From assembly GCA_964522265.1 (NCBI GenBank), contig CAZFVS010000016.1:1-14161 (forward strand): a DNA stretch of 14,161 nucleotides, written 5' to 3'. The translations under genes and the position numbers were made by a program. Of this stretch, positions 47-12,880 are shown in pieces. Each line of letters starts with the position of its first letter. Within the stretch, counting starts at the first letter, position 1. Below the pieces are notes generated by a model. That model saw only the letters and a program-made list of their open reading frames with translations, was not told the origin of the DNA and searched no databases. The DNA comes from an uncultured Gammaproteobacteria bacterium. Its GTDB lineage: Bacteria; Patescibacteriota; Microgenomatia; Daviesbacterales; UBA10151.

Positions 47-1696
47 CTAATGTTTGGAGGTTGAACCTCCAAACATTACGGAGTACCCTACAAGCACTAA
101 CAAAACACCATAAACAAACGGGGTTGCCTCGTTTTTTAAAAGCTGGGGCCTGGCAGTACCGTCAATGTGTACAACTGCAGGGCATTTTTTTGCCATAAAA
201 GGTGTGCAATTAAAGGTAATTGTCATAAACTCTGCTGAAGATTGGGCTTTCTTAATATCCTTAAAACACCTGAACCGTTGTTCAAACAGGACTACCGGTG
301 CAAAAGGCATAAACTCATCCCTTTTGAGCAGCCTATTCAACTTTTCGGCGGTTTTTTTGTCTGCAGCCGATGCTAAAATTGACCGGTTGCCCAAAGCCCG
401 GGGACCATATTCCATCCTCCCCCTGAAAACGGCGATTATTTTTTTATCTTTCAGTAATTTTGCAACCCTTAGCTTAAGAACCTTGGGTTTTTCGTATTTC
501 AATCCATTTTTTTTAAGAGCTTCCTCTATCGCGACATCTCCAAACTGTGGACCCAAGTATAAGTTTTTAAGCCTGCTGACCTTAATTTCGGTACCTTTCA
601 CAGGCGCTGCAGCTGCCCCATGAGCATTGCCAAAATCCCCCATCCCGGGGTAGACAAAAAGCTTCTTAACCTCCGGAAGCTCAGCAATTGTTTGGTTCAT
701 CCTAACATTCGCACAGACTCCACCTGTCAGCACAATTTTTTTGCAGTCTGTCTTCTTAAGAAGCCTGCTTGCCAAATCCGTAACAACCTCCTCCAGCCTC
801 TTTTGGGCAGCCCAAGCAATATCCTCTTTCTGGAAACCCTTAAGCTGAATAGGCAGTTTTTTCTGCTGACTAAAATAGTATGGGAATAAAAAAACTTTGT
901 CTGAAAGTTTAAGCTTCATACTTTTTGTTCCTAACATCTGCTGTACAATTTCATGCAATTTTTTGAACCCATCAGGTTGCTTTTTGATTCTACCCCAAGC
1001 AGATAATCCAGTTACTTTACCTTCATCAAATCCGGGTTTAAACCCTAAAAGCTCCGTAAAGGCCGCATAAAAATGACCGGCGCTGTGCGGGTCAGGGGTT
1101 GAAACAACCTCTGTTATGATGCCTTTTTCACCAATATAAGCGTTCACAGTATGTTCAAATGAGCTCCCCTCAATATTCAATATCAGGCATTTGCCGGCAA
1201 AACCTGAAGCGCTGTAGGCCGCATAAATATGACAAAGTTTATGGGGAATGTAACGGATTTTTCCCTTAAACCCTAATTTTTTAAGGCTTCTGACCAGTTT
1301 TGCCATCCCCCACTCATCCTTTAATGCTTTTTCAGCCATATTAATACTTCCCTGCGATGAAGCCATCCTTCTGGAAACAACTGACTGGAACTTATCTTTG
1401 GAAAAAGAGATCCTGATAAGATCAAATTTGAGAAGAGCCAATAACCTAAAAAAGGTTTTTATAAAAGCAGCAATTTTCTTTACTGGCGGATATCCGACTA
1501 TATGGATGCAGTCCAATTCCGAAGGTTTGATATCCAAAGTCTCCAAAACAGCCTCAACCGACCTTAAGGGCACTCCTCTTTGCTGTTTTACCCTAGTAAA
1601 CCTCTCCTCGTTTACAGCTGCTGCTAACTTTCCATCTACAACCAGAGCTGCACCGCTATCATGCAGCAGATTACAATTTATGCCTAAAATTTTCAT
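47..1696 (-). CDS. Carbamoyltransferase (NodU/CmcH/TobZ family), apparently lacking the usual C-terminal ~50 aa
   Basis: 549-aa ORF with family hallmarks as I recall them: an N-terminal MKILGIN...HDSGAALV block, GGVCANVRMNQ, FRGRMEYGPRALGNRSILA, DEFMPFAPVVL and HIDGTARPQ. Only 31 aa follow HIDGTARPQ, and no NTSFN...EPIV-type terminal block is present. The ATG overlaps the upstream gene's stop by 4 nt (ATGA). Confidence 0.85.
   Translation of the reverse strand: MKILGINCNLLHDSGAALVVDGKLAAAVNEERFTRVKQQRGVPLRSVEAVLETLDIKPSELDCIHIVGYPPVKKIAAFIKTFFRLLALLKFDLIRISFSKDKFQSVVSRRMASSQGSINMAEKALKDEWGMAKLVRSLKKLGFKGKIRYIPHKLCHIYAAYSASGFAGKCLILNIEGSSFEHTVNAYIGEKGIITEVVSTPDPHSAGHFYAAFTELLGFKPGFDEGKVTGLSAWGRIKKQPDGFKKLHEIVQQMLGTKSMKLKLSDKVFLFPYYFSQQKKLPIQLKGFQKEDIAWAAQKRLEEVVTDLASRLLKKTDCKKIVLTGGVCANVRMNQTIAELPEVKKLFVYPGMGDFGNAHGAAAAPVKGTEIKVSRLKNLYLGPQFGDVAIEEALKKNGLKYEKPKVLKLRVAKLLKDKKIIAVFRGRMEYGPRALGNRSILASAADKKTAEKLNRLLKRDEFMPFAPVVLFEQRFRCFKDIKKAQSSAEFMTITFNCTPFMAKKCPAVVHIDGTARPQLLKNEATPFVYGVLLVLVGYSVMFGGSTSKH
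49..77. terminator. Perfect 12-bp hairpin (AATGTTTGGAGG / loop TTGAA / CCTCCAAACATT) covering the carbamoyltransferase stop codon; possible operon-end terminator or inserted palindromic element
   Basis: Read directly: 49-60 pairs with 66-77. The stop codon (47-49) abuts the base of the stem (49-77), sharing nt 49, and the last 9 codons are encoded by the stem-loop. On the minus strand a T6 run lies roughly 18-20 nt downstream of the stem, so this is not a canonical intrinsic terminator. Confidence 0.3.
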
Positions 1697-3591
1697 TTTT
1701 GAGGATAGTCTTTGAGCAGTTTTTCTAAATTATCTTTTGCTTCCCGATTGGCAGGATTGGTTAAAATAGCTTTCTGAAAATTATTGTAAGCCTGGTCAAA
1801 ATATTTTTGGCTTTGGTAAATTAACCCTAAATTATTATAAATTCCGGCCATACTCTCCTTGATCTCAGTACCGGTCATACCTCCCTTTTCCAGATTAGAT
1901 TTTAACCCCTGATTATAGATTTCAAAAGCTTTGCTCAGACTCTTCTCATTGATATAATGATTACCTAAACCCAGATATGCAGGCATATAATTCGGGTTTA
2001 TACTTATAACTTTTTCAAAGCTTTCTACTGATAAATTATCCTCACCTAAAACCTTGTAAACGTGGGCTAAATTAAATATCGCCTGATAAAAATCAGGACG
2101 CAGTCCGATAGCTTTTTTATAATATAGAACTGCCTTATCAGGCTGGCTTCCAGAGGAATTAAAAGCGCCTATATTATAATATGCTAAAGCGCTTTCGGGA
2201 TAAACTTTGCTGACTGATTGCCACAAACTCATCTGATCTCTCCAATCAAAATTCCGCCGGTAAGTTCTGGCTGAATAAAAAATAACTATTCCTGTAAGCA
2301 GAATCAACCCTATAATCCGTTTCTGCTGGATCAACTTATTTAAAAACCAACTCAAAATCATTACAAACCCGAAAGATGGTATGTACATATACCTTTCCGC
2401 CATAGGAGTAAACTGAGTAATGAAGTTTGAAAACGGCAACAAGGAAACCAAAAACCAACTCAAACCGAATGAAATAACAGGGTTCTTGAAGAACCTGAAA
2501 AAAAGGACCACCAGTGTTAATAAAACTACAGCTGAGGTCAAAATATCCTGATCGAAAAAGTTTTGCCGGGTTAAAATCCCATGGGCGTTTAATGCGGGCG
2601 CAAAAGTTTCAAATCCGGGGGGAATAATATGGTTTAAAGAAAGGTTAACCGGCAAAATTAACAGCAAAAGATACTGCAGGTGTATTTTCAATGTTAAAAG
2701 CTGCATTAAGTAGAAACTACTGAGATCATAGTTAAAATTGGATGAACTCCTGCCTAAAACAGCTATCCTGACAAAAAAGATTACTGCGATAAGAGCCAAA
2801 AAAGGCGCTACCTTTTTGAGCCTGACGAATATCGATATTTTAGACCTGTAAACATAACAGTCATACAGGAACAAAAAAGCCGGGAGGATAACTGCCGGAT
2901 CATAAGTTAAAAATGCCAAACCGGCAAGAAGCAGGGAGGTTTTACGCCTGTTTTTGATGTACAGTAAAAATGACCCAAAAAACAATAAGACTCCGGTCAT
3001 ATCTATACTTGATGTAATGAAGGTAATAGCCTCAGTATGGATCGGATGCAGGCCAAAAAGCAGGGCAGTTAAAAAAGGTGGCAGTGAGTAGTGAGTAGTG
3101 AGTAGTTTGTGCGGGGTGGCAGGAGCGGGTCCTGCACGTAGTGCGGACGGGAGTCTAAATGACTCCCCGGAGGGCCCCCGCCGAGTGCCCGCAGCGACGG
3201 CTTCGAGCGAGGACATCGGGCGGGGGTGGCGACTGACAGGACCCCAAACAAATACTAATTCCCTGGTTATAAAATATATGAGGACAGTTATCCCAAGGTG
3301 GACCAAAATGGAATGAAGATGATAGCCAAAAGGATTTGTGCCAAAAAATTGATGGTATAACACAAATATCATATCCCTTACCGGCCTGTAATCTTTTTTA
3401 GAAACCGGGCCCTCACCTTTAATTATTGCCGGTAAATTTCTAATATCGTTTTTTTCCTGCCAATTGATGATAAAAATAGGATCATCTATAACAAACCTAT
3501 TAGCGAAAATATTTGAATAGGCCAGAAGCGTAAGAAGTATTACTACAACAAGCTGAAACCGAATAGAACGAAATGATTCAAGGATTTTCAT
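1693..3591 (-). CDS. TMTC/PMT-like GT-C fold glycosyltransferase (putative protein O-mannosyl/glycosyl-transferase) with C-terminal TPR repeats; paralog 3 of 3, carrying a GC-rich in-frame insert
   Basis: 632 aa. The N-terminal signal-anchor is followed by FVIDDP, a DD/DE-type first-loop motif of GT-C enzymes. It has LFGLHPIHTEAITFI (a DUF1736/TMTC-like HPxHTE block), about 9-11 hydrophobic helices, PMAERYMYIPSFGF, and then 4-5 TPR-like repeats (YYNIGA..., FNLAHVY..., YLGLGNHY..., YNNLGLIY...). It is collinear with the two upstream paralogs. Confidence 0.75.
   Translation of the reverse strand: MKILESFRSIRFQLVVVILLTLLAYSNIFANRFVIDDPIFIINWQEKNDIRNLPAIIKGEGPVSKKDYRPVRDMIFVLYHQFFGTNPFGYHLHSILVHLGITVLIYFITRELVFVWGPVSRHPRPMSSLEAVAAGTRRGPSGESFRLPSALRAGPAPATPHKLLTTHYSLPPFLTALLFGLHPIHTEAITFITSSIDMTGVLLFFGSFLLYIKNRRKTSLLLAGLAFLTYDPAVILPAFLFLYDCYVYRSKISIFVRLKKVAPFLALIAVIFFVRIAVLGRSSSNFNYDLSSFYLMQLLTLKIHLQYLLLLILPVNLSLNHIIPPGFETFAPALNAHGILTRQNFFDQDILTSAVVLLTLVVLFFRFFKNPVISFGLSWFLVSLLPFSNFITQFTPMAERYMYIPSFGFVMILSWFLNKLIQQKRIIGLILLTGIVIFYSARTYRRNFDWRDQMSLWQSVSKVYPESALAYYNIGAFNSSGSQPDKAVLYYKKAIGLRPDFYQAIFNLAHVYKVLGEDNLSVESFEKVISINPNYMPAYLGLGNHYINEKSLSKAFEIYNQGLKSNLEKGGMTGTEIKESMAGIYNNLGLIYQSQKYFDQAYNNFQKAILTNPANREAKDNLEKLLKDYPQK
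3084..3104. repeat. Tandem heptamer (GTGAGTA)x3 at the edge of the GC-rich insert
   Basis: Three perfect copies at 3084-3090, 3091-3097 and 3098-3104. On the coding strand they encode LLTTHYS. Confidence 0.9.
3109..3243. repeat. GC-rich, stem-rich 135-nt block embedded in frame in the GT-C/TPR gene (candidate inserted structured element)
   Basis: Hand count is 94/130 G+C (72%) for 3111-3240, against 21/60 (35%) for 3251-3310. Stems are GCAGGA 3119-3124 / TCCTGC 3130-3135; GGGAGTC 3149-3155 / GACTCCC 3161-3167 (loop TAAAT); and CCCCCGCC 3175-3182 / GGCGGGGG 3219-3226. GGGGTGGC occurs as a direct repeat near both ends (3113-3120 and 3223-3230). All frames on both strands are open here. The block encodes a Pro/Arg/Gly/Ala/Ser-rich ~45-aa segment that is absent from both paralogs at the aligned position. 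Confidence 0.6.
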
Positions 3592-5317
3592 TTGATAGCT
3601 GTGGATTAATATTTATCAGATCAAGTAATTCCTGTCTAATAATACTATCAGAAGGGTCTAAAACTAAAGCCTTTTTAAAATTTAAAAATGCAAGATCAAA
3701 CTCTTTCCGGTCTTTATAAATAAAACCTAAATTTCTGTACACTATAGACAGATCTTCTTTAGAGCTTATCTTTATTGCCTTTGATAATAACTTTATCGCC
3801 AATTCAGGATTCTCTGCCCTGTAAATATTTGCAAGATTAATATAGGCTGATGCAAAATCCGGGTTAATTTCTATCGCTTTCTTATATTGCTCCTGAGCCT
3901 GATACAAATTCCCTATCTTTTGGTTTGCATAAGCTAAATTATACCTTGCCTGATAAAAATTTGGTTTTAAGCTAATTGCTTTGGCAGTAAAAATTATTGC
4001 AATATCATATTTTTTTTGTTCATTATAGATAGCACCAATACTATAATAACCGAGAGCACTGTTCGGATAAATTTTAACTACTTTCTGCCATAAAGTTTCA
4101 TCATTTTTCCAGTCAAAATTACGCCGGTAAGTCAGCACCAGGTAACAGGCTAACAATCCAATAAGTCCTATCAGACCAACCAGTCTCACGCGCCGTATGA
4201 CTTCCCTAAAAAACAACCCCAAAAACAGCACAAATCCAAATGAGGGGATGTAAAGATATCTTTCTGCCATAGGCGTAAGCTGCGGAGTTAGGTTGGCAAA
4301 AGGCAACAGGCTTAAAAAAAACCAGCCTATGCTAAAAGAGATGATCGGGGTTTTTTTGAAAAATTTTATGGCAATAATAACTAACACTACAACTGATAAA
4401 ATTGATAAAAATACTCCTGATCCAAATATAGATTCTTTAAAAAATAGCCGTAAATCATTGGAAACCGGGGAAAAACTCTCTACCCCATCCGCAATAATAT
4501 GGTTTATGGATAACCACAGCGGTAAAACCATAAGGTATATGTAAAACGCATATATCTTGGACATTAAAAGCTGAGCATGATATAAGCCTTGTAATGAGTA
4601 TTTGCTGAGCACAAAATCATGCTGTAAGAAAATAAACCTGTGTGCTATAAAAATTAACACAGGCACCAGATATCCAATATAATACTTAATGCTGGAAAAA
4701 AATTTGATTTTTTGCTTAAAGCAAAGGCCGTACAACATAATAAGCAGCGGCAATACAACTGCAGCTTCATATATGAGCATCGCCACTATCCCCAAAGACA
4801 AAGAACAGGCATAAAAAACAGGTTTTGACGTTTTTTCGTAAAATAAGTAAAGGTAAAATGAGGCCAGTAAAAAAACTGCACCTGTTGAGTACACCCCGAT
4901 AGTTATAAAAGTTATTGCCTCAGTATGGATGGGGTGCAGGCCAAAAAGCAGAGCTGTGACGAAGGGTAACCAGTGACCACCCCTCAAATGTCTAATTATA
5001 AAATAAATCAACACTGTCGAGGCTAAATGGACCAGAATAGATACAATATGATACCCAAAAGGGTTTACGCCAAAAATTTGATATGCAAGCATGAAAAAGA
5101 GATTACCTATAGGTCTATATCGTGTATTTATACCTGCTGCCTCTTCTCCCGTAAAAATTTTAGGTATATTACGCAAGTCGTTTTTTGTTGTCCATTCAAC
5201 AATAATTTTCGGGTCATCAATCACAAATGCATTTGCGAAGATGTTGGAGTAAGCAAGAAAGGTTAGGATGATAATAATCAGTAATTGGATTTTTGTGGAT
5301 TTGAGCTTTCGGAACAT
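3578..5317 (-). CDS. TMTC/PMT-like GT-C fold glycosyltransferase with C-terminal TPR repeats; paralog 2 of 3 (the 'clean' copy without inserts)
   Basis: 579 aa with FVIDDP, LFGLHPIHTEAITFI, PMAERYLYIPSFGF and a TPR array (YYSIGAIY, YNLAYANQ, YINLANIY, YRNLGFIY). The ATG shares one base with the upstream stop (TAATG), and the stop overlaps the next ATG by 14 nt. Confidence 0.75.
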   Translation of the reverse strand: MFRKLKSTKIQLLIIIILTFLAYSNIFANAFVIDDPKIIVEWTTKNDLRNIPKIFTGEEAAGINTRYRPIGNLFFMLAYQIFGVNPFGYHIVSILVHLASTVLIYFIIRHLRGGHWLPFVTALLFGLHPIHTEAITFITIGVYSTGAVFLLASFYLYLFYEKTSKPVFYACSLSLGIVAMLIYEAAVVLPLLIMLYGLCFKQKIKFFSSIKYYIGYLVPVLIFIAHRFIFLQHDFVLSKYSLQGLYHAQLLMSKIYAFYIYLMVLPLWLSINHIIADGVESFSPVSNDLRLFFKESIFGSGVFLSILSVVVLVIIAIKFFKKTPIISFSIGWFFLSLLPFANLTPQLTPMAERYLYIPSFGFVLFLGLFFREVIRRVRLVGLIGLIGLLACYLVLTYRRNFDWKNDETLWQKVVKIYPNSALGYYSIGAIYNEQKKYDIAIIFTAKAISLKPNFYQARYNLAYANQKIGNLYQAQEQYKKAIEINPDFASAYINLANIYRAENPELAIKLLSKAIKISSKEDLSIVYRNLGFIYKDRKEFDLAFLNFKKALVLDPSDSIIRQELLDLININPQLSNENP

Positions 5318-7401
5318 TAAATTTTAATTGACCCCAAAATAATATCAAACAACCTCATCTGAGGTGAATTTGCAGGGTAGGCCAAAATTTTTATCACCTT
5401 TTCGTCCTGGACCAGGAAAAACTGCAATCTACTCACACCATTATCATCAAAAACCCTGACATAAGCTGTCTGGAAATTAGGGATCCTCGCCAAACCCTGG
5501 TTAACCAACATACCCGCAGGCGATGCTTGTTTGTCCAGAAAATCATTAATCTTCATCTTTGCAGGCTTGGCAGCCTCCTCAAACTCAACAAAAAATTGCC
5601 CATCTTGGTCTTTGATTATAATCTTACCTCCATCCTCAATACTCCAGTAGCTTGGGAAGAAAAACTCAAACCTGTTTTCTTTTTTAAACTTTGCAAAAAC
5701 ATCATTGCCGTAGATCTGGGCGGAATCTGTGGATGCTTTTACCAGGGACAAGTTTTTGAGAGTATTTGAAGCTGCTTTTAAATTCGGATTTAAATTTAGA
5801 GCTGTTTGGTATTCCTCCGCAGCCTTTTCAAGCACCGCTGCCCGCAGGTAAATATTGCCCAAATTCATATGCGCCTGCCAAAAATCAGGTGCTTTGTCCA
5901 GCACTGCCCTGTAATATTTTTCAGCCTCCCCCAGTGCATTAAAATTACCAAACCATATCCCCAGTGTATAATTTGCCAGCAGGTTTCCCGGTGATTTTTT
6001 GACAACATCAGAAAAAAGGCTGATATCGTCTCTCCAAACTATGTTTCTGGCAAAAGTTAATCCTGAGTAAACCACAAGCAGCAAAATAAGCATGAATATC
6101 AGCAGTTGCTGAAAAAACTTTTTGGTAATCCACCCCGGAGACGAAGAAAATATTACACCTCCGAGGTGTGATATAAGCAGCAAAAACCCGAAAGAAGGTA
6201 TATACAAGTACTTCTCAGCCATGGCTCCACCGTGCGGGATGATATAAGAGACAGGCAAAAGAGAGATAAAAAACCATAGAATTGAAAATGATATAATTGG
6301 ATATTTTCTGATGTATTTAACTGCTGCCAAAAGTAACGCTGCTATAACTGCTATGGAAAGCAGGACGTCCGCATCAAAAATAGTCTGGTTTAGGATTGGG
6401 CCAAGTTTGTCATAAGGGGTCATGGATGAGGGAAAATCCCCCACCAGATTATGGATGGCTGTCTGGTTAATTGGGAAAAATAAAAGCCCAATGTAGCGCA
6501 CAAATACCTTGACCATAGTAAGCTGGGTCAGGTAAAAGCTGTACCCAAGATAATCTGTCCTGGAAAGCAGTCCAAGCACACTGAACCTGATAGCCACAAA
6601 AGTTAGAGCTATTGCAAAATAAGGCACAACCTTAAGGTAACTTCTCGCTCTCAGGCGAAGCCTGATCGCTCGAAGAGGAAATCGGAAACAGATCTCATAC
6701 AGCACTATCAGCATAGGCAAAGTCAAAGTCATTTCATAGGTGAAAAAAGCCAGGGCTGCAGAAATAACCGAAGCTCCCAGAATCACACCTCGAAGGTGTA
6801 ATCCCATTTCTTTCACCTTCGAGGTGAATTCCTCTGAGGTGTGCCGCCGGAAAAGCAAATACAGCCAGAAGCTCAGAAAGAAAAATACAGTCCCAAAGCT
6901 TTCCATGCTGGTTGAGATATAATCAATGGTTTCTGTATGGATGGGATGACGGCCAAAAAGCAGGGCTGTGATAAATGGCAAATAGTGACCGGCTCCTAGT
7001 ATCCACCTCGGAGGTGTAACTGCATTTTTTTCACCTCCGAGGTGAGTTGCTTGGGAGATAAGCTGTCTGGTTATAAAATAGACCAAAAGCGTACTGATAA
7101 GGTGGATTAAAATAGCCTGGACCCTGTATCCCAAGGGATTTGAACCCCAAAGCTGGTAATCTACCATATAAAATACTCCTCTAAGCGGCCGGTAGATCTT
7201 GCCTTGTGCAGGCGGTGCAGAACCCTTTAAAATCTCACCCAAATTTTGAAAACTTTGAATCTGGGGCCATTGTTCCAGAAATAAATGGTCATCCCAAAGC
7301 AGCCTATTGGGCAATGAGTTGGCATAAACCAAAAAAGTCAATATCAGAACAACCAAAAGTTGAATTTTTGTATCTTTAAGCGATTTTAATAGATCTGACA
7401 T
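5317..7401 (-). CDS. TMTC/PMT-like GT-C fold glycosyltransferase with TPR repeats plus an extra ~135-aa C-terminal domain of unknown function; paralog 1 of 3, carrying several hairpin-element inserts
   Basis: 694 aa with a LLWDDH loop motif, LFGRHPIHTETIDYI, AMAEKYLYIPSFGF and TPR-like repeats (NYTLGIWF, HMNLGNIY). The tail after the TPRs (STDSAQIYGND...ILGSIKI) has no counterpart in the other two paralogs. Confidence 0.7.
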   Translation of the reverse strand: MSDLLKSLKDTKIQLLVVLILTFLVYANSLPNRLLWDDHLFLEQWPQIQSFQNLGEILKGSAPPAQGKIYRPLRGVFYMVDYQLWGSNPLGYRVQAILIHLISTLLVYFITRQLISQATHLGGEKNAVTPPRWILGAGHYLPFITALLFGRHPIHTETIDYISTSMESFGTVFFFLSFWLYLLFRRHTSEEFTSKVKEMGLHLRGVILGASVISAALAFFTYEMTLTLPMLIVLYEICFRFPLRAIRLRLRARSYLKVVPYFAIALTFVAIRFSVLGLLSRTDYLGYSFYLTQLTMVKVFVRYIGLLFFPINQTAIHNLVGDFPSSMTPYDKLGPILNQTIFDADVLLSIAVIAALLLAAVKYIRKYPIISFSILWFFISLLPVSYIIPHGGAMAEKYLYIPSFGFLLLISHLGGVIFSSSPGWITKKFFQQLLIFMLILLLVVYSGLTFARNIVWRDDISLFSDVVKKSPGNLLANYTLGIWFGNFNALGEAEKYYRAVLDKAPDFWQAHMNLGNIYLRAAVLEKAAEEYQTALNLNPNLKAASNTLKNLSLVKASTDSAQIYGNDVFAKFKKENRFEFFFPSYWSIEDGGKIIIKDQDGQFFVEFEEAAKPAKMKINDFLDKQASPAGMLVNQGLARIPNFQTAYVRVFDDNGVSRLQFFLVQDEKVIKILAYPANSPQMRLFDIILGSIKI
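5352..5366. repeat. Solo palindrome of the CACCTC/GAGGTG family (ACCTCA-TC-TGAGGT, followed by G)
   Basis: ACCTCA at 5352-5357 pairs with TGAGGT at 5360-5365. The 10-mer GAGGTGAATT (5361-5370) is identical to 6821-6830, next to hairpin copy B. Confidence 0.5.
6131..6168. repeat. Hairpin element copy C (inverted orientation, one degenerate arm)
   Basis: The arms are CACCCCGGAGACG (6131-6143, 10/13 to consensus) and CACCTCCGAGGTG (6156-6168). The 12-nt spacer AAGAAAATATTA resembles the reverse complement of the copy A and B spacers (AAAGAAATGGGATTA, AAAAAAATGCAGTTA). It encodes HLGGVIFSSSPGW, which is absent from the paralogs. Confidence 0.55.
6786..6826. repeat. Hairpin element copy B: 13-nt arm, 15-nt spacer, 13-nt arm
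   Basis: CACCTCGAAGGTG (6786-6798), spacer TAATCCCATTTCTTT (6799-6813), CACCTTCGAGGTG (6814-6826). The arms are exact reverse complements, and each arm is also nearly self-palindromic. It sits inside the segment SEEFTSKVKEMGLHLRGV, which is missing from both paralogs. Confidence 0.8.
6829..6841. repeat. Extra degenerate arm (TTCCTCTGAGGTG) abutting hairpin copy B
   Basis: 11/13 match to CACCTCNGAGGTG, with the CCTC-T-GAGG palindrome at 6831-6839. Confidence 0.4.
7004..7044. repeat. Hairpin element copy A: 13-nt arm, 15-nt spacer, 13-nt arm
   Basis: CACCTCGGAGGTG (7004-7016), spacer TAACTGCATTTTTTT (7017-7031), CACCTCCGAGGTG (7032-7044). The arms are exact reverse complements. The architecture, spacer length and TAA...TTT spacer ends match copy B. 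It encodes part of THLGGEKNAVTPPRW, in the same loop that carries the GC-rich insert in paralog 3. Confidence 0.8.
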
Positions 7402-7466: not shown

Positions 7467-9788
7467 TCACTTGTGGATGATAATGGACCCTCCGCCAAGC
7501 TCTTGCGGGTTGGCTGAGTCAAGATCATCTGAGACGCCTAAGGCATTATCATAACCAACTTGGCTGTCTTTGGTAATTTTAATCCTGAACTTATCCGGAT
7601 TATCTTTTGTCTCACCATCGGTTGCGGTTAAAAGAAAGTTATAACCTGAAACCTCGTTTACTGAACCTGAGCCTTTATATTGCGCCTTGCTTCCTGCAAC
7701 CACCAGCCACTGATAGGTATCACTGTGGAAGTTAAAACCGGCAACCTTAAATTGGAACTCAGTCTGCCCTGTTGGAACATCTGCCCCTTTTTGGTATTTG
7801 GAGACAAAACCAAAATTGGCAACACCGGCAAGGCCCGGATCAGCAGTATATGCGCCTGCAGGTGAGTTAAGCCATCCTCCGCCTGTGACAAACCCACCAT
7901 CAGGATCATAAACTACTACCATCACACTTTCAGTATCAGCTGCTCCCTGGCTGTCTGTTAAAACAGTATTGATAGTATAAACCCCGGCACCACTGAAGTT
8001 ATGGCTTGCACCGCAAGTCCCGGAGCCGGCTGACTCAACCACGCTGCCCTGGCTGTTGCTGCCATCATCCCAATAAGTAATACATGTGTGGATACCGCTG
8101 TCATTCGGGTCAGTAAAGGAGGCCTGAAGATTGACAGCATTACCCAAAGCATAAAGTTGTCCTCCGGCAGGTGAAGTGATGGCAAGCTCGGGAGGGGAAT
8201 TTGTTTGCAGGGCTAAATTCCAGCTGCTGGCAGTTGAGGTCAATACTGTTATCTGAGCATCCCCGCCGGCAAGAAGCACCCTGGAAGACACACATGGATC
8301 AGGAGATGCCACACCCGGGCTGCCTAAACAAGGCGGAACCGGCACAGTATTTTTTAATATTTGTATGGTATTGACATCAGCCCCGGCTACTACAGTAGAA
8401 TCTAAAACGAACACCAGCTGCAACGGGTTTTCTGCTGTTGCGGCAGGGGCAGTAATATTTACCTGCGAGCCAAGAAAACTATAACCTGAAGGGGGCTGCA
8501 AACTGGGTGTTGTTTCACTGATAGAAACTTCTCCACCGGTGGGGCTGGTGATGGTTGTTTCAACAGGATCAACAGCTGTGGCCCCATCTGACTCTGAATC
8601 AGAGGTTAAACTGCCTCCTGCTGAAACGGTTTGAATAACATTTTCTAAAGTTGAGGTATTAAATCTGGTAACCAGGAAGTTTGGTCTTAAGGTCCCTATG
8701 TCAGTAAAAATACCAACCCCTACCAGCTGACCATCGCTTTGGAAGCTTAAATCCTTAAGTTGTACAGAATCAGCCCCAAAAGGCTGGATGATTTTTCCTG
8801 CTGAACCAAAATTTGTGTCCAAACTGCCATCTGTATTGTACCTGGCCAATCCTAAGTTAAACACTCCGTTAACAGTTGCATCTCCTCCAACCATAATTTT
8901 CCCGTCGGATTGGAGTACTACAGCATTTGCGAAATCATCTTCTGAACGAAAATCAGTAGTTACCTTGCCCCCCGAGCCAAAAGTGGTATCTAAACTGCCG
9001 TCTGTGTTATAACGAGCTAGGGCAAAGTGGTTAATAAATGGCGTCCCGTTGGAAAAGTTTCCACCAACTACAATTTTCCCATCTGATTGGATTCCTACAG
9101 TATTGCCTTCATCATTAAAACCGGTAAAATCAGTGATTACTTTACCCCCGGAGCCAAAAGTGTTATCCAATGTACCGTCTGTGTTATAACGTGCTAAAGC
9201 AAAATCTGCCGAATCGTTAAAGTAATCCACCCTCGTCGTTCCGGCCACTACAATTTTACTGTCTGTTTGTAAGGTTACAGCATGCGCCACTTCAGTAAAA
9301 CCACCAAAATCAGTAGTTACCTTGCCCCCGGAGCCAAAAGTGTTGTCCAGGGTACCGTCTGTGTTATACCTGACAACGGCTAAATTATCATCTGCATTGC
9401 CTACTGCCACTATCCTGCCTGCAGGATCGATCTGTATAGCTATATCATAAAGCATATCGTAAGCCGAGGAAAAATCCGTAATGACTTTGCCTTCAGAACC
9501 AAAAGTAGTATCCAACGTACCGTCTGTGTTGTATCTAGACAGTCCGAAGGCGAATTGGGTGGATGGGGCGGCGCTTACAGAAACAAAACCCGCAGCTATA
9601 ATTTTTCCATCAGTTTGTATAGCAACAGCTATAGCATCATCGCCATTGGGATCAGAGCTAAAACTCGTTGTCACAAAACCGTTTGTCCCAAAGCTTAAAT
9701 CCAAGGTCCCGGGGGCTGCAAATACAGGTTTGGGGATAAAAAGGAGGCTTAAAAATATTACCAAAACAACTGGCAGTTTACTGGGCAT
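7467..9788 (-). CDS. Secreted repeat protein: signal peptide, 6-7 delta-60 repeats (beta-propeller-like), PKD-like domain and a conserved C-terminal beta-rich domain
   Basis: The N-terminus MPSKLPVVLVIFLSLLFIPKPVFA/AP looks like a Sec signal. The unit R(Y/F)NTDG(T/S)LD(T/N)TFGSGGKV recurs at residues 85, 140, 200, 259 and 316 (degenerate at 27 and 375) with a 55-60 aa period, matching the delta-60 repeat (TIGR02608) as I recall it. WDDGS...SHNFSGAGVYTINTVLTDSQG is PKD-like. The tail GGGWL...ANFGFVSKY...FRIKI...GGGSIIIHK resembles a domain often found after PKD or propeller modules. There is no C-terminal sorting tail. Confidence 0.8.
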   Translation of the reverse strand: MPSKLPVVLVIFLSLLFIPKPVFAAPGTLDLSFGTNGFVTTSFSSDPNGDDAIAVAIQTDGKIIAAGFVSVSAAPSTQFAFGLSRYNTDGTLDTTFGSEGKVITDFSSAYDMLYDIAIQIDPAGRIVAVGNADDNLAVVRYNTDGTLDNTFGSGGKVTTDFGGFTEVAHAVTLQTDSKIVVAGTTRVDYFNDSADFALARYNTDGTLDNTFGSGGKVITDFTGFNDEGNTVGIQSDGKIVVGGNFSNGTPFINHFALARYNTDGSLDTTFGSGGKVTTDFRSEDDFANAVVLQSDGKIMVGGDATVNGVFNLGLARYNTDGSLDTNFGSAGKIIQPFGADSVQLKDLSFQSDGQLVGVGIFTDIGTLRPNFLVTRFNTSTLENVIQTVSAGGSLTSDSESDGATAVDPVETTITSPTGGEVSISETTPSLQPPSGYSFLGSQVNITAPAATAENPLQLVFVLDSTVVAGADVNTIQILKNTVPVPPCLGSPGVASPDPCVSSRVLLAGGDAQITVLTSTASSWNLALQTNSPPELAITSPAGGQLYALGNAVNLQASFTDPNDSGIHTCITYWDDGSNSQGSVVESAGSGTCGASHNFSGAGVYTINTVLTDSQGAADTESVMVVVYDPDGGFVTGGGWLNSPAGAYTADPGLAGVANFGFVSKYQKGADVPTGQTEFQFKVAGFNFHSDTYQWLVVAGSKAQYKGSGSVNEVSGYNFLLTATDGETKDNPDKFRIKITKDSQVGYDNALGVSDDLDSANPQELGGGSIIIHK
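8778..9536 (-). repeat. DNA-level tandem repeats (~165-180 nt period) encoding the delta-60 blades
   Basis: Near-identical stretches recur around 8968, 9145 and 9323, for example CCCCCGGAGCCAAAAGTGTT(G/A)TCCA...GTACCGTCTGTGTTATA. Confidence 0.7.
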
Positions 9789-9839: not shown

Positions 9840-11735
9840 TTACTCTTCTTCCCCTAATCCATGCGATAATTTAGCCAGGATTCGGGACATCCCGGGATAG
9901 AATTTATCATAATTTAATATCATAAAAACCAGCACCAAAGATATCAAAACAGGTATAACCCTTTCCCAAGCCTGGATCCGGTACTCAAGGCTCAGGTGAA
10001 CCCGGCCGGCTGCAGCCGGTATCACTACAATATTGCCCAAACTATCACCAACCACCCTGCCGCCCGCGCCACCCTCAATTGCCCAACCAGGACTGAAAGA
10101 GATTGCCAAAGAAATTACTTCATCTTTTTTTAAATCAGCATTTATCTCAACCAACCTTGCAAAGTGAGAGCTTGTGAGGCTAAGAGGGGTTTTGAAGGTG
10201 TTGACATATTTTGTCAGTGTATCTTGATCTGCGCCGTTTTTGGGTTTTTTAACCTCAAGTATTGATTTATCAGCTACCCTGGCAATACTTGCCCCACTTA
10301 CCTTATATAGAGTATCCCCCTTCTCCTCCCTGATCTCCCTTATCCCCCCGATCTCCCCAATCCCCCCAAACTTCTCCAAGTGCTTAAAATCCCTGTAAGG
10401 CTCCTGCGACCCTTCCCCATGCACCAAAATCCAACTTGCACCCAGGGCTTTGAGCCAATTCAGCGCCAATTCACTACTTTCCCCTTCCCTGATTTGGAAT
10501 ACTCCATGCGCCCAAAACGGATGGATTGATGCCTGGTCAACTCCACCCCTGACTTGGGCAATATCAAGCTTGCTGTTTATCCAAAAAACGCTCGTGCCGG
10601 AAAGAAACACCCGCTCACTTTTGGGCACATTTTGCAGCATCTCAGTAACCCTTTTTTTGTATTCCCCATTCATCCCACCAACCCATCCTCTTAAAATCAG
10701 CGCCAACAATATTGTCATTCCCGCGAAAGCGGGAATCCAACCGCGAAGCGGGAACTTTAGTTCATTAGAGACAAAGGATGGATCCCGGATCGGTGTCCGG
10801 GATGACATCCACTGACCCAGCAAAATTGCCACCCCAAATTGAATCTCAATAAAAAACCCGATCCAATCCCTCACAAAATCAGGGTCTGATAAAAACCTGA
10901 ATAAAGTTAAAAGTAAAAAGGAAAAAGTAAAAAGAATGCCAAAAAAGAGCAATGGTTGGGGTTTTTTATGCCTCAGCTTAACCACCCAAACCGCTGCCAG
11001 GATAGGAACCAGGTTCAAAAGCAGCTGGAACAGGAATTTTCCCAAATTAACAAGCGGCATCCCTCCAAAGGAAGGGTTTTGCAAAAGAGTGAGCCAAAAC
11101 CCGGGCGTATACCAAACCGTAGCCAGGCTTAAGGCAAGCAATATAATAATGAAGGTTTTAAAAATTTGGTATTCTCCAATCCCCCGTACCACCCCCAAAC
11201 AGATAAACCCTACCACAAGCGGAAGCAGTATCGAAATATCTATAAGAGATAAAAATGCTATCAAAACACAAAGCAATAGGGCAAATTTTGTGTCTTTTTT
11301 TTGTAAAAACTGTAAAAATACCACAAAAACCCAGGGTAAAAACCCCCAGGCAAAATGGTAAAGGCCATTGCTGCCGGATAATAAAAGAAAAAAGTAAAAA
11401 GGCAAGAGTAAAAATAAAAGAGAGACAATAAATGGTAACGAAGTTACGAGAGGTGATGCGGTAGGACCCCGAGCAACATACATTAATCCCCTTACCAGCT
11501 TATACACCCCCATCCCTCCAACCACCCATGAGATAGTAACCAGAATTAAATATTTTTGTAACATTGAAAATTCATTGAAAATTGGTAATTGAAAATTGAA
11601 AATTCCCAGCAAAGCTGGGATCACCGGCCCTATTAAATAATGGAAGGGTACTCCTAAATACCAGTCAGGATACCAGGAAATATCGGGAAAGTTATTTATA
11701 AAAAACTGGGAGAGAGCCAAGACAGTTTGTATCAT
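9840..11735 (-). CDS. Large polytopic membrane protein with an extracytoplasmic C-terminal domain and terminal anchor; possibly a GT-C-like (PTPS-related / YfhO-like) glycosyltransferase
   Basis: 631 aa. The N-terminal ~345 aa are almost entirely hydrophobic helices. SWYPDWYLGVPFHYLIGP near the N-terminus resembles the W-P-x-WY-x-G-x-PF motif I associate with COG5617-type 'PTPS-related' membrane proteins. A ~270-aa soluble region follows, then a final helix VIPVLISLVLVFMILNY. It carries three separate in-frame repeat inserts, listed below. Confidence 0.5.
   Translation of the reverse strand: MIQTVLALSQFFINNFPDISWYPDWYLGVPFHYLIGPVIPALLGIFNFQLPIFNEFSMLQKYLILVTISWVVGGMGVYKLVRGLMYVARGPTASPLVTSLPFIVSLLFLLLPFYFFLLLSGSNGLYHFAWGFLPWVFVVFLQFLQKKDTKFALLLCVLIAFLSLIDISILLPLVVGFICLGVVRGIGEYQIFKTFIIILLALSLATVWYTPGFWLTLLQNPSFGGMPLVNLGKFLFQLLLNLVPILAAVWVVKLRHKKPQPLLFFGILFTFSFLLLTLFRFLSDPDFVRDWIGFFIEIQFGVAILLGQWMSSRTPIRDPSFVSNELKFPLRGWIPAFAGMTILLALILRGWVGGMNGEYKKRVTEMLQNVPKSERVFLSGTSVFWINSKLDIAQVRGGVDQASIHPFWAHGVFQIREGESSELALNWLKALGASWILVHGEGSQEPYRDFKHLEKFGGIGEIGGIREIREEKGDTLYKVSGASIARVADKSILEVKKPKNGADQDTLTKYVNTFKTPLSLTSSHFARLVEINADLKKDEVISLAISFSPGWAIEGGAGGRVVGDSLGNIVVIPAAAGRVHLSLEYRIQAWERVIPVLISLVLVFMILNYDKFYPGMSRILAKLSHGLGEEE
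10332..10367. repeat. 18-nt tandem duplication inside the membrane-protein gene
   Basis: GATCTCCCTTATCCCCCC (10332-10349) and GATCTCCCCAATCCCCCC (10350-10367) are 16/18 identical. They encode the low-complexity GGIGEIGGIREI. Confidence 0.8.
10714..10806. repeat. 93-nt MITE/REP-like palindromic element inserted in frame ('IPAFAGMT' element)
   Basis: The ends are an imperfect terminal inverted repeat: GTCATTCCCG (10714-10723) against CCGGGATGAC (10797-10806). There are two internal 8-bp hairpins: ATTCCCGC-GAAA-GCGGGAAT (10717-10736) and ATCCCGGA-TCGGTG-TCCGGGAT (10782-10803). A partial extra copy CCGC-GAA-GCGG lies at 10741-10751. The element is 31 codons long and encodes SSRTPIRDPSFVSNELKFPLRGWIPAFAGMT. 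The opposite strand reads VIPAKAGIQ. I recognise both peptides as recurrent translations of a widespread bacterial repeat. Confidence 0.65.
11562..11604. repeat. TGAAAAT-rich repeat, coding copy (in frame in the N-terminal part of the membrane-protein gene)
   Basis: CATTGAAAATTCATTGAAAATTG (11562-11584) matches 13298-13320 at 22/23 positions. The 43-nt block encodes GIFNFQLPIFNEFSM. Confidence 0.7.
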
Positions 11736-11762: not shown

Positions 11763-11777
11763 CATAATACTTAATAC
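11763..11777. repeat. Direct repeat flanking four-helix-bundle cassette 1 (downstream copy)
   Basis: CATAATACTTAATAC, which contains the stop codon of the four-helix-bundle gene. Its partner at 12171-12192 is identical apart from a 7-nt internal duplication. Confidence 0.6.
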
Positions 11778-12166
11778 TTATTTCTAACGCTTTTGACCAG
11801 ACCATTAATGAGCTTGCTAATAATCACTGTTTGTGAAGCTATTTCTTGAAAACGCTGTTTATTGATATATCCTAAATCTCTGGCTATTAAAAGTTGGTTT
11901 TGAACTTCAGTCAAGGACCCTAATGATATATAGTAAAATTGAACCTTTTCTTTATTTGAATTTCTAGAAAAACCTTCTGCTATATTACTGGTAACAGAAA
12001 CTACTGCTCTTCTGAGCTGACTACTAAGATCAAATCTTTCATATACTGGAAATAATTTAGTTTCATTATAAATTACCATAACTAATTTATGTCCTTCTTT
12101 CCACGCATTAAGATCTGTAAAAGATTTAATTGTTTGAGTTTTTTTAAGAGAAATTTGATTTTGCAT
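11771..12166 (-). CDS. Four-helix-bundle protein (TIGR02436 / PF05635, '23S rRNA intervening-sequence protein' family)
   Basis: 131 aa with FTDLNAWKEGHKL, LSSQLRRAVVSVTSNIAEGFSR, FYYISLGSLTEVQNQLLIARDLGYI. This is the classic family pattern F-x-DL-x-W / QLxRAxxSIxxNIAEG / GSxxE. Confidence 0.85.
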   Translation of the reverse strand: MQNQISLKKTQTIKSFTDLNAWKEGHKLVMVIYNETKLFPVYERFDLSSQLRRAVVSVTSNIAEGFSRNSNKEKVQFYYISLGSLTEVQNQLLIARDLGYINKQRFQEIASQTVIISKLINGLVKSVRNKY

Positions 12167-12824: not shown

Positions 12825-12837
12825 AATTTTCAATTTT
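12825..12837. repeat. Inverted-repeat arm downstream of four-helix-bundle cassette 2
   Basis: AATTTTCAATTTT is the exact reverse complement of AAAATTGAAAATT at 13314-13326. Confidence 0.6.
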
Positions 12838-12880
12838 TAATTTACAATTTACAATCAATATTTAATGTATCAATTTACAT

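What the first reader, a model, noticed from the sequence alone, without database searches (positions are those of the whole stretch)
6131..7044. A 41-nt hairpin element with 13-bp arms occurs three times in frame in one gene, and a base-pair change between copies is compensatory
Copy A (7004-7044) and copy B (6786-6826) have the same layout: a 13-nt arm, a 15-nt spacer (TAA...TTT) and a 13-nt arm. Within each copy the arms are exact reverse complements.

Between copies, arm 1 differs at position 8 (G to A) and arm 2 differs at position 6 (C to T). These are the two positions that pair with each other, so a G:C pair becomes A:T. That is the signature of selection for, or copying of, a stem-loop.

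Copy C (6131-6168) is inverted, with a shortened spacer and one decayed arm. Solo arms lie at 6829-6841 and 5352-5366. Each insertion coincides with residues missing from both paralogs.

Each arm is also a near-palindrome that pairs a perfect SD-like GGAGGTG with an anti-SD-like CACCTCC.
Basis: seen in the sequence. Interest (0 to 1): 0.65.

Follow-up and report, generated by a model that had tools for sequence, protein, structure and literature searches.

The report
In-frame REPIN-like hairpin repeats in genes
The three hairpins are copies of a small mobile DNA repeat, widespread in ultra-small (CPR/Patescibacteria) bacteria, that looks like the known REP/REPIN elements moved by RAYT transposases but mostly sits inside protein-coding genes, in frame, and is translated.

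Summary
Copies A (7004-7044) and B (6786-6826) are perfect 13-bp/15-nt-loop hairpins. Copy C (6131-6168) is an inverted, decaying copy. All lie in frame in one membrane-protein gene, at sites where its paralogues have gaps.

The A/B base-pair swap is a difference between two widespread subfamilies. Over 130 copies from about 110 CPR (mainly Microgenomates) loci keep the two arms complementary while the stem varies (8 of 13 pairs show double changes; 0/500 shuffles match).

About 80% of copies lie inside long ORFs, no less often than random positions. Arms are read in phase 0 (HLxG) or phase 2 (TSEV), almost never phase 1. Loop lengths of 8, 11, 14 and 17 nt keep both arms in the same phase.

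Genes for RAYT-like HUH tyrosine transposases are bracketed by the same CACC-N5-GGTG palindrome: by doublets in L080 and L137, and by single units on both sides in 25 of 80 metagenomic relatives.

Best reading: a REPIN/RAYT-type element adapted to live within genes. Two classical REP features fail (extragenic location, GTAG tag), and intragenic REPs are already described, so this is a new variant of a known kind. Unexplained: synonymous sites inside orthologous copies are frozen (96% vs 51% identity).

The parts
7004..7044 (-). Copy A: an intact 41-nt doublet hairpin (arms 7004-7016 and 7032-7044, 15-nt loop, CGG/CCG stem centre). On the mRNA (-) strand it reads CACCTCGGAGGTG-AAAAAAATGCAGTTA-CACCTCCGAGGTG and encodes ..HLGGEKNAVTPPRW.. 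The second arm is read in the rare phase 1.
6786..6826 (-). Copy B: an intact 41-nt doublet hairpin (arms 6786-6798 and 6814-6826, 15-nt loop, CGA/TCG stem centre). It encodes ..TSKVKEMGLHLRG.., with arm phases 2 and 0, as is typical of 15-nt-loop copies.
6131..6168 (+). Copy C: a decaying 38-nt copy with its loop inverted relative to A and B. The decayed arm is 6131-6143 CACCCCGGAGACG, the loop is 12 nt, and the intact arm is 6156-6168. There are 10 Watson-Crick pairs, plus 3 G.U pairs on the mRNA strand only. It encodes ..HLGGVIFSSSPGW..
6829..6841 (.). Arm-like 13-mer TTCCTCTGAGGTG (2 mismatches), 2 nt from copy B and read in the same phase (TSEE). It may be the remnant of a chained arm, as seen in L079 and L091.
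   Evidence: Matches of this quality are expected about 1.45 times per window by chance.
5354..5366 (.). Arm-like 13-mer CTCATCTGAGGTG (2 mismatches) with no partner arm. Probably a chance match.
5317..7401 (-). Host gene: a 694-aa multi-pass membrane protein with C-terminal TPR repeats. Its paralogue 3578-5317 matches PMT_2 (glycosyltransferase family 39-like). The hairpin-encoded segments lie in variable loops.

Best explanation
What it is. The hairpins are non-autonomous mobile repeats of the REP/REPIN type. The basic unit is a 13-nt palindrome, CACCT-NNN-AGGTG. Two units in inverted orientation around a spacer of 8-17 nt form a 34-43-nt 'REP doublet forming a hairpin'.

Shown here:
- The family is dispersed in many CPR/Patescibacteria genomes (mainly Microgenomates and WWE3).
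- Its stem is kept complementary through compensated changes.
- The stem-centre type is genome-specific.
- Presence is patchy among close orthologues.
- There is no target-site duplication.
- Genes for RAYT-like HUH/tyrosine (Y1) transposases in related genomes are bracketed by the same palindrome.

Inferred, by analogy with E. coli TnpA-REP and IS200/IS605. The transposase recognises the folded unit on single-stranded DNA, for example at a replication fork. It then cuts and rejoins the DNA, so that copies are excised and pasted in trans.

Shown as a pattern, with its cause inferred. These genomes have almost no intergenic space, so most copies land in genes. The survivors are those that keep the frame, sit in tolerant protein loops, and have both arms read in phase 0 (HLxG) or phase 2 (TSEV). 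The family's loop lengths (8, 11, 14 and 17 nt) and its lack of stop codons in two phases fit that way of life. The copies are therefore translated as 12-15 extra residues.

In this window. A and B are intact members of two stem subtypes and C is a decaying copy. All three were gained in this lineage. No transposase gene lies on this 14-kb contig.
For: Family and covariation:
- At least 119 loci were found in public genomes, nearly all CPR.
- 109 of 133 doublets have perfectly complementary arms across six centre types. Compensated changes also occur at positions 4, 5 and 9.
- In the 11-nt-loop class, 99.1% of cells are paired, with 25 doubly changed cells against 3.7 in shuffles (0/500). Pairing falls to 42-54% when the register is slid. 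The window's loop class gives 98.5% paired.

Copying within genomes:
- Two copies from the same genome share the stem-centre type in 0.656 of pairs, against 0.394 in shuffles (p < 0.0005).
- Roizmanbacteria MGAF01 uses TAA/TTA both in dispersed copies and next to its RAYT.
- The WWE3 dispersed copy L086 resembles the copy that flanks the RAYT in L080.

Mobility:
- The element peptide is present or absent among UvrD orthologues that are 72-80% identical. At least two distinct insertion types occur in the same loop, and decayed or interrupted copies exist.
- No target-site duplication was found.

Transposase link:
- L032:1445-2122 passes Pfam Y1_Tnp (25.3 bits, cutoff 23) and hits NCBIfam REP_Tyr_transpos at E = 1.8e-13.
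- Relatives occur in 8 of 119 hairpin-seeded loci, all with invariant HUH and RYxH motifs.
- The best PDB match is E. coli TnpA-REP, 4ER8.
- The L080 gene lies between two doublets in mutually inverted orientation, 16 nt upstream and overlapping the stop codon. L137 has doublets 45 and 43 nt from the gene.
- 25 of 80 metagenomic relatives have the 13-mer on both sides, 3-59 nt from the gene. Left and right centres are identical or reverse-complementary.
- Other RAYT-like genes carry their own different palindromes. This is the 'one RAYT, one REP type' rule described in PMC3337134.

Life in coding sequence:
- 95 of 121 copies lie in open stretches of at least 150 codons, against 80% for random positions.
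- Phases are 34: 1: 29.
- Alignments to homologues run through the element in a single frame.

Literature: compensatory changes and length-constrained spacers are reported properties of REPINs (PMC3116915).
Against: - No RAYT-like gene is in the window, and the rest of this genome is not available.
- Most RAYT flanks carry single 13-mers or one-and-a-half units rather than the full doublet. No RAYT was found flanked by the window's own 14/15-nt-loop type.
- The NCBIfam RAYT score (50.6 bits) is below the curated cutoff of 80, and the PDB match is weak (E = 0.001).
- Two classical REP features fail: location is not extragenic, and there is no GTAG or CGTC tag.
- How the frame is preserved is not explained. 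Element lengths are 1 mod 3, there is no duplication, and net length changes at filled versus empty sites do not equal the element length.
- Synonymous sites inside orthologous copies are frozen (96% vs 51% identity). Purely selfish DNA would not predict that, unless there is continuing RAYT-dependent maintenance or an added function.
- Transposition of REPINs by RAYTs is itself only inferred in the literature.
Confidence: 0.72

Rival explanations
1. The hairpins are kept, or have been co-opted, because they act in the mRNA. Possible roles are slowing or pausing ribosomes, masking a strong Shine-Dalgarno-like GGAGGTG with an anti-SD-like CACCTCC, providing internal starts (GGAGGTG-A6-ATG), or serving as RNase or stability signals. 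This could sit on top of a mobile origin.
For: - Element DNA is 98.7% identical, and its third codon positions 96% identical, in four UvrD orthologues chosen by protein similarity. Adjacent flank third positions are 51% identical.
- Loops, which the search pattern does not constrain, are 87% identical, against 74% for flanks.
- G.U wobbles in imperfect copies fall on the mRNA-sense strand 16 times and on the antisense strand 3 times, including all 3 changes in window copy C.
- The loop is A-rich on the sense strand at 48 sites and T-rich at 15.
- The loop ATG is in frame at 13 of 14 independent sites.
Against: - Copies sit in unrelated proteins at unrelated positions, and their presence is patchy among close orthologues.
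- Loops can be inverted in place without loss of the copy (L064, L035/L049).
- The 17-nt-loop class has no ATG yet is also phase-0 only (12:0). Phase bias can therefore come from peptide tolerance.
- Transcription-strand mutation bias could produce the wobble asymmetry.
- Uncompensated decay occurs (L206, L207).
- No Rfam family matches.
Confidence: 0.2
2. The 13-mers are double-stranded DNA sites for a dimeric protein or a sequence-drive system, such as uptake signal sequences, restriction-modification or methylase-linked iterated palindromes like cyanobacterial HIP1, or a nucleoid protein. In this reading their pairing into hairpins is incidental.
For: - Each arm is itself a near-perfect interrupted palindrome, with strongly conserved outer bases CACCT/AGGTG.
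- The motif occurs inside genes in the tolerated reading phases, as uptake sequences do (own knowledge, not tested here).
- In the UvrD loop the element partly replaces native residues rather than simply adding length.
Against: - Independent binding sites would vary independently. Instead the two arms covary.
- Arm palindromy is often broken while inter-arm complementarity is kept (CGA/TCG, CCA/TGG).
- Whole 37-43-nt units with conserved loop classes recur at unrelated loci. That requires copying, not point-mutation drive.
- The motif brackets transposase genes.
Confidence: 0.05
3. The hairpins arose locally by replication template switching or quasi-palindrome correction, are chance inverted repeats, or are a protein-level repeat motif.
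For: - Template switching can make arms perfect and can invert loops (own knowledge, not tested here). Loop inversion in place is observed.
- Recurrent peptides HLRG..HLGG and TSEV..TSEV could be mistaken for a protein motif.
Against: - The same 13-mer and the same loop classes occur in hundreds of unrelated genes and many genomes.
- The motif is enriched 7 versus 1.45 in the window.
- The same DNA is read in two different frames, giving unrelated peptides, and an inverted loop changes the peptide (EKMRL to VSAFF) at one orthologous site.
Confidence: 0.02

Closest known systems
REP/REPIN elements with RAYT (REP-associated tyrosine transposase) genes ('REPtrons'), described in Pseudomonas, E. 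coli and other bacteria (PMC3337134, PMC3116915, PMC5581495, PMC3733652)
   Same: - A short palindromic unit, with two units in inverted orientation around a spacer forming a hairpin.
- The spacer varies in sequence but is constrained in length.
- Compensatory stem changes are common.
- There are many dispersed copies and no coding capacity.
- A Y1/HUH transposase gene is bracketed by its own repeat type.
- Copies persist and are inherited vertically.
- Occasional intragenic copies have already been reported, including in UvrD/Rep and other repair genes (PMC3733652).
   Different: - The unit is only 13 nt and the doublet 34-43 nt, against an 89-bp GI REPIN in Pseudomonas fluorescens SBW25 (PMC3337134).
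- There is no GTAG or CGTC tag.
- Loop lengths step by 3.
- The hosts are CPR/Patescibacteria, for which the papers searched hold no REPIN/RAYT report.
- The RAYT-like proteins are about 210-230 aa and score below NCBIfam's RAYT cutoff.
Rickettsia palindromic elements (RPEs)
   Same: Palindromic repeats found inserted in frame in many unrelated protein-coding genes of a reduced genome, and translated as extra peptide segments (PMC10969869; PMC3733652).
   Different: - RPEs are about 150 bp, and each family encodes a conserved peptide in one frame.
- They end in CGTC and have no dedicated transposase (PMC3733652).
- The elements here are 34-43 nt, are read in two frames, and are linked to RAYT-like genes.
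- There is no sequence similarity between the two.
IS200/IS605-family insertion sequences and their hairpin ends
   Same: The Y1 HUH transposase fold and motifs. Recognition of subterminal hairpins on single-stranded DNA and the absence of target-site duplication are own knowledge of the family; the ISDra2 TnpA structures are the next-best PDB matches.
   Different: Those elements are autonomous and carry their own transposase gene between the hairpins. The copies here are 34-43 nt with no ORF of their own.
Bacterial MITEs (Correia/NEMIS, ERIC, RUP, Nezha)
   Same: Small, non-autonomous, dispersed, able to fold, and sometimes intragenic with in-frame fusions (PMC10969869).
   Different: MITEs are 70-300 bp with 15-30-bp terminal inverted repeats (PMC3733652), and they make target-site duplications (own knowledge; listed as a MITE term in PMC10969869). 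No duplication was found here, and the element is essentially only the inverted repeat.
Hairpin and palindromic insertions in organelle genes (for example the coding palindromes of Nematomorpha mitochondria, PMC6649704)
   Same: Inverted repeats embedded in coding sequence and translated.
   Different: A different domain of life, different sizes and no transposase link. The comparison rests on the abstract only.

Membership tests
REP/REPIN-RAYT system | A short palindromic core repeated many times in the genome | tested here: met
   The core CACCT-NNN-AGGTG gives 5 perfect arms in the window, and 7 hits with up to 2 mismatches against 1.45 expected. Beyond the seeding copy there are about 2.7 further doublets per 100 kb. 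A whole-genome count for the window's own organism is not possible because only a 14-kb contig exists.
REP/REPIN-RAYT system | [quoted passage not shown] | tested here: met
   Arms are exact reverse complements in 109 of 133 doublets. They fold as 13-bp hairpins as DNA and as RNA. Definition taken from PMC3337134.
REP/REPIN-RAYT system | Compensatory changes in the stem, and a spacer that varies in sequence but is constrained in length | tested here: met
   8 of 13 pairs show changes on both sides, in 25 cells against 3.7 in shuffles (0/500). The 11-nt loops are highly variable in sequence at a fixed length. Property as described in PMC3116915.
REP/REPIN-RAYT system | A RAYT gene (Y1 transposase with HUH and catalytic Tyr motifs) flanked by the same repeat | tested here: met
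   Met in related genomes. L080 has doublets on both sides in inverted orientation, L137 has doublets on both sides, and L032 has one 26 nt downstream. 25 of 80 metagenomic relatives have the 13-mer on both sides. The motifs are invariant. This cannot be tested for the window's own genome, and no RAYT-like gene is in the window.
REP/REPIN-RAYT system | Each RAYT is associated with its own specific repeat type | tested here: met
   Left and right centres match or are reverse-complementary within a gene and differ between genes. Other RAYT-like genes carry unrelated palindromes. Stem centres are genome-specific.
REP/REPIN-RAYT system | Repeats lie predominantly in extragenic space | tested here: not met
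   95 of 121 copies lie in stop-free stretches of at least 150 codons, the same as random positions at 80%. Homologue alignments run through the element in frame.
REP/REPIN-RAYT system | A GTAG (or CGTC) tetranucleotide tag at one end of the unit, the site cleaved by E. coli RAYT (PMC3733652) | tested here: not met
   Units begin CACC and end GGTG. The flanks show no conserved tetranucleotide; the only signal is that position -1 is rarely G and +1 is never C.
REP/REPIN-RAYT system | The transposase is classified as a RAYT by a curated model | tested here: inconclusive
   Pfam Y1_Tnp scores 25.3 bits, above its cutoff of 23. NCBIfam NF047646 REP_Tyr_transpos gives E = 1.8e-13, but its 50.6 bits are below the cutoff of 80. 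The best PDB hit is TnpA-REP 4ER8 at E = 0.001.
REP/REPIN-RAYT system | The RAYT gene is present as a single copy per genome | not tested
   Only 8-kb stretches of each genome were available.
Rickettsia palindromic elements | In-frame insertion in ORFs of functional genes | tested here: met
Rickettsia palindromic elements | An element of about 150 bp that encodes a conserved peptide and carries a CGTC tag | tested here: not met
   The elements here are 34-43 nt, are read in two frames that give unrelated peptides, and have no CGTC tag.
MITE (cut-and-paste, TIR type) | Target-site duplication flanking the element | tested here: not met
   Matching flanks of 2 nt occur at 10 of 64 sites against about 5 expected, and longer matches are essentially absent.
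Intrinsic terminator | A GC-rich hairpin followed by a run of T, located after a gene | tested here: not met
   The run of T or A lies inside the loop, and the copies are inside ORFs.
Any curated RNA family (Rfam 15) | A match to a covariance model | tested here: not met
   0 matches at E <= 1 over the whole window.

The most novel reading that the evidence does not exclude
The copies are not merely tolerated passengers. Once inserted, they are held under nucleotide-level purifying selection because the hairpin does something for the cell in the transcript. It could act as a built-in ribosome pause, a masked internal SD/start signal, or a stability element inside coding regions. Alternatively, a RAYT-dependent process could actively 'proof-read' copies against a master sequence. 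Either would make CPR REPIN-like elements a vertically inherited, coding-embedded layer of regulation or maintenance. The evidence that does not exclude this reading is the frozen synonymous sites (96% vs 51%), the sense-strand G.U bias (16:3) and the strong sense-strand loop orientation bias (48:15).
Probability: 0.22. Interest if true: 0.8.

Novelty: new variant of a known kind. Interest (0 to 1): 0.5.

Why it matters
- **REPIN theory.** It is argued that in gene-dense prokaryotes most duplications of mobile elements destroy genes, so such elements should die out unless they are beneficial (10.1101/2021.07.10.451892). These CPR elements show another route: a repeat whose architecture allows it to be translated harmlessly.
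- **Annotation.** Many CPR proteins carry 12-15-residue repeat-encoded segments (HLRGEKMRLHLGG, TSEVKxxxTSEV and others). These can mislead alignments, domain boundaries and structure prediction, and they can seed spurious similarity between unrelated proteins.
- **A lineage marker.** The motif flags probable CPR contigs filed under other names.
- **An experimental system.** The transposase relatives with a 13-nt hairpin target are a compact system for studying recognition of single-stranded DNA.
- **An open question.** The frozen synonymous sites give a concrete, testable case for asking whether such repeats are maintained by selection or by an active copying process.

Tried and rejected
- **Source contig.** An exact-protein look-up failed once and then found nothing on record. 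Public genomes were used instead.
- **Rfam.** No match.
- **Phage origin.** Only 2 hits in viral contigs, so rejected.
- **Literature.** The motif is not printed in any held paper, and no paper combines RAYT/REPIN with Patescibacteria.
- **Target-site duplication or extended stem.** Not found.
- **Exact insertion boundaries.** Filled versus empty orthologues were too diverged.
- **Translational bypass or excision of the hairpin.** Rejected, because homologue alignments continue through the element in a single frame.
- **Protein-level motif.** Rejected, because two frames are used.
- **'Loop ATG in frame' as proof that ribosomes see the SD.** Withdrawn as evidence, because the ATG-less 17-nt class shows the same phase exclusivity.
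- **My first conservation figure (arms 97.8% identical).** It is biased by the search pattern, which fixes 10 of 13 arm bases. It was replaced by a pattern-independent test.
- **Orientation relative to the replication strand.** Not attempted, because 8-kb loci cannot separate replication skew from gene-strand skew.
- **GC-rich insert in the paralogue.** No relatives among the fetched loci.


Full report
**1. The observation**

Reading the window confirms the coordinates and layout. Copy A is CACCTCGGAGGTG (7004-7016), TAACTGCATTTTTTT, then CACCTCCGAGGTG (7032-7044). Copy B is CACCTCGAAGGTG (6786-6798), TAATCCCATTTCTTT, then CACCTTCGAGGTG (6814-6826). Within each copy the arms are exact reverse complements. 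The two differences between copies are the two bases that pair with each other.

Copy C (6131-6168) has one intact arm, a 12-nt spacer of opposite orientation, and one arm with three changes. All three changes give G.U pairs on the mRNA strand.

The arm pattern with up to two mismatches occurs 7 times against 1.45 expected (0 of 200 shuffles), and every hit lies in one gene. A and B fold as 13-bp hairpins on either strand, both as RNA (z -4.4 to -7.0) and as DNA (about -15 kcal/mol, z about -7).

The gene 5317-7401(-) encodes a 694-aa membrane protein with TPR repeats. It is one of three tandem paralogues of the PMT_2 type. The ORF reads through all three copies. The encoded segments are missing from both paralogues. 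For A and B they are also missing from every orthologue found, all at most 54% identical. The two 'solo arms' are two-mismatch matches of the kind expected by chance. The one next to copy B is plausibly a remnant; the other is probably chance.

**2. It is a family, and the stem covaries**

Nearly all come from CPR/Patescibacteria MAGs: Davies-, Curtiss-, Roizman-, Beckwith-, Levy-, Woese- and Gottesmanbacteria, and WWE3. Several are labelled 'uncultured Gammaproteobacteria' or 'Pseudomonadales', yet their proteins are Daviesbacteria-like.

Of 133 doublets, 109 have perfectly complementary arms although the central triplet takes six forms. Relaxing the pattern reveals compensated changes at positions 4, 5 and 9 as well, for example CACCCCCGGGGTG/CACCCCGGGGGTG.

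On 36 distinct 37-nt copies, 99.1% of cells pair. Eight of 13 pairs show changes on both sides, in 25 cells against 3.7 ± 1.6 in shuffles (0/500). Pairing falls to 42-54% when the register is slid. The window's 41-nt class behaves the same way.

The A/B difference is therefore a subfamily difference. Both stem types occur elsewhere with the same loop (L059, L074). Stem centres are genome-specific: the within-genome match is 0.656 against 0.394 in shuffles, p < 0.0005. That points to copying within genomes.

**3. Where the copies sit**

Copies lie inside long open frames as often as random positions do (95 of 121 against 80%). Alignments to homologues continue through them in a single frame, in proteins such as a UvrD-like helicase and RadA.

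After collapsing orthologous sites there are 64 independent sites. The first arm is read in phase 0 at 34 sites, phase 1 at 1 and phase 2 at 29. Phase 0 gives HL(R/G/Q/E)G and phase 2 gives TSEV/TSKV/TLEV. Phase 1 would give PPRW, or a TGA stop when the loop starts with A.

Loops of 8, 11, 14 and 17 nt place both arms in the same phase. Loops of 12 or 15 nt give phases (2,0), and loops of 10 or 13 nt give (0,2). The second arm of window copy A, and that of copy C, are rare phase-1 exceptions.

The same DNA read in two frames gives unrelated peptides. At two orthologous sites the loop is inverted in place, which changes the peptide. The conserved entity is therefore nucleic acid, not protein.

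There is no target-site duplication and no extended pairing. The base before the stem is G at only 3 of 64 sites, and the base after is never C.

**4. Mobility and decay**

Among 120 UvrD orthologues retrieved by protein similarity, most have an 'empty' loop (..FILSQIDKKRLSDYAVLYRTNAQ). Eleven carry ..FIINHLRGEKMRLHLGGVAVLY.. Five carry a second type with a longer loop in which the native LSDF is retained. Others show a broken arm, an arm split by an insert, or a nested insert in the loop.

Presence is patchy among proteins 72-80% identical. The same loop holds unrelated repeat-derived peptides in other orthologues. The same is true of the host protein's loops and of the paralogue in this window. 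Permissive loops are thus colonised repeatedly.

The net length change is not the element length: it is +4 aa with about 9 native residues lost, or +15 aa. The insertion chemistry therefore remains unresolved.

**5. The partner**

In L032, two copies flank an ORF (1445-2122; one copy lies 26 nt downstream, the other 668 nt upstream). The ORF passes Pfam Y1_Tnp and hits NCBIfam 'REP-associated tyrosine transposase' at E = 1.8e-13, although its score is below that model's cutoff.

Relatives lie in 8 of the 119 hairpin-seeded loci. All have invariant YH..N, MPxHxH (the HUH motif) and RYxH motifs. The best solved-structure match is E. coli TnpA-REP.

In L080 the gene sits between two doublets in mutually inverted orientation, one 16 nt upstream and the other overlapping the stop codon. 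Other relatives are bracketed by their own different palindromes.

A metagenome scan gave 80 more relatives. One has doublets on both sides with a fully compensated variant stem. Twenty-five have the CACC-N5-GGTG 13-mer on both sides, 3-59 nt from the gene, with left and right centres identical or reverse-complementary. Many right flanks read AGGTG-N11-13-CACC..GGTG.

This is the arrangement that defines REP/REPIN-RAYT systems: a REP doublet forming a hairpin, and a RAYT flanked by its own type (PMC3337134; PMC5581495). Common compensatory changes and length-constrained spacers are reported REPIN properties (PMC3116915).

**6. What does not fit, and what is unexplained**

Two classical features fail. 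The copies are not extragenic, and there is no GTAG or CGTC tag (PMC3733652). I therefore describe the element as working like a REPIN without filing it as a classical REP.

The window has no RAYT gene, and its genome is otherwise unavailable.

The most interesting residue is conservation. My first estimate (arms 97.8% identical) was inflated by the search pattern. In four UvrD orthologues chosen by protein similarity only, the element is still 98.7% identical and its third codon positions 96% identical (75/78). That compares with 51% (83/162) in the adjoining flank, and divergence starts at the stem edge. Two other orthologues show uncompensated decay.

In imperfect copies, G.U wobbles favour the mRNA-sense strand 16 to 3. 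The loop is A-rich on the sense strand at 48 sites and T-rich at 15. These facts are compatible with an RNA-level constraint, with RAYT-dependent maintenance, or partly with strand-biased mutation.

The sense-strand loop of the window's class reads GGAGGTG-A6-ATG, and the ATG is in frame at 13 of 14 sites. However, the ATG-less 17-nt class is just as phase-restricted (12:0), so peptide tolerance may be the cause.

**7. Comparison and novelty**

The closest known systems are REPIN/RAYT, for mechanism and architecture, and Rickettsia palindromic elements, for the in-frame intragenic lifestyle (PMC10969869).

Intragenic REPs and REP dimers, including in UvrD/Rep and other repair genes, were already described for the GTAG and CGTC families (PMC3733652). 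The phenomenon as such is therefore not new.

What is new, as far as the searched literature shows:
- this untagged 13-nt family;
- its presence across CPR lineages;
- the predominance of in-frame intragenic copies, with an architecture that steps by three;
- the link of such copies to RAYT-like genes.

**Verdict.** It is a new variant of a known kind, of moderate interest.

Noticed in passing
window 3085-3245 (inside gene 1693-3591, - strand): A GC-rich in-frame insertion of about 160 nt (55-60% GC against a background of about 38%). It sits in the paralogue at the same protein loop as hairpin copy A and begins with an (AGTGAGT)x3-like run. As RNA it folds into a branched structure (-68.6 kcal/mol, z -3.1). 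It has no Rfam match and no relatives in the fetched loci. It may be another repeat or structured element.
   Followed up: partly
window 11771-12166(-) and 12881-13300(-); repeats at 11556-11604, 12825-12873 and 13292-13340: Two genes of the '23S rRNA-intervening sequence protein' family (PF05635; one also hits bAvd-like weakly). Each is associated with a 49-53-nt AT-rich repeat built of TTGAAAATT-like units, present in direct and inverted copies.
   Followed up: no
L003, L006-L008, L010, L011, L016, L019, L022, L027, L033-L037, L041, L044 and others (genome contigs records titled 'uncultured Gammaproteobacteria' or 'Pseudomonadales'): The UvrD encoded in L044 is 65-79% identical to helicases that the sources name Candidatus Daviesbacteria. 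Like the other loci listed, L044 also carries this CPR-typical repeat. The taxonomic labels of these TPA MAG records look wrong.
   Followed up: partly
UvrD orthologues P0203, P0225, P0209, P0212, P0178, P0207, P0124; host orthologues P0002, P0003, P0008, P0017: The same permissive protein loops carry other, unrelated repeat-like peptides, for example IASEAKQS..SPRNDN, ..GAADRN.., and VIPAKAGIHTM. This suggests that several palindromic repeat families insert in frame in CPR genes.
   Followed up: partly
L022:2782-2815 and 3469-3502; L065:4208-4233 and 4890-4915; L066:907-934, 1151-1175 and 1591-1618; L017:5283-5308, 5529-5548, 5806-5825 and 6018-6043: Other RAYT-like genes are bracketed by their own palindromes: AACAAAGGAC-N-GTCCTTTGTT, GTTAAGGTTC-C-GAACCTTAAC and AACAAACCC-GGA-GGGTTTGTT. 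In L066 and L017, extra copies lie inside the transposase ORF itself.
   Followed up: partly
L064 versus L019, L044, L072 and L090; L035 versus L049: At orthologous sites the loop of the hairpin is inverted in place while the arms and flanks stay the same. The encoded peptide changes (EKMRL to VSAFF, VLRF to EISR).
   Followed up: yes
L044:118-3156(-) and about 40 UvrD orthologues of 950-1020 aa (P0121-P0165): These UvrD-like helicases carry an intein (PF14890 and Hint domains). Orthologues of about 620 aa lack it.
   Followed up: no
window 8778-9549 (gene 7467-9788, - strand): Five tandem repeats of about 165-180 nt. They correspond to the DUF5122 beta-propeller blades of a PKD-domain protein and are ordinary protein repeats.
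   Followed up: no
L207:about 290-320 (P0167; P0180 is similar): One UvrD copy has arm 1 split by a 19-nt insert (CACCT-agaacgtggggtgacccaa-CGAGGTG). A second orthologue shows the same kind of event at the peptide level.
   Followed up: no
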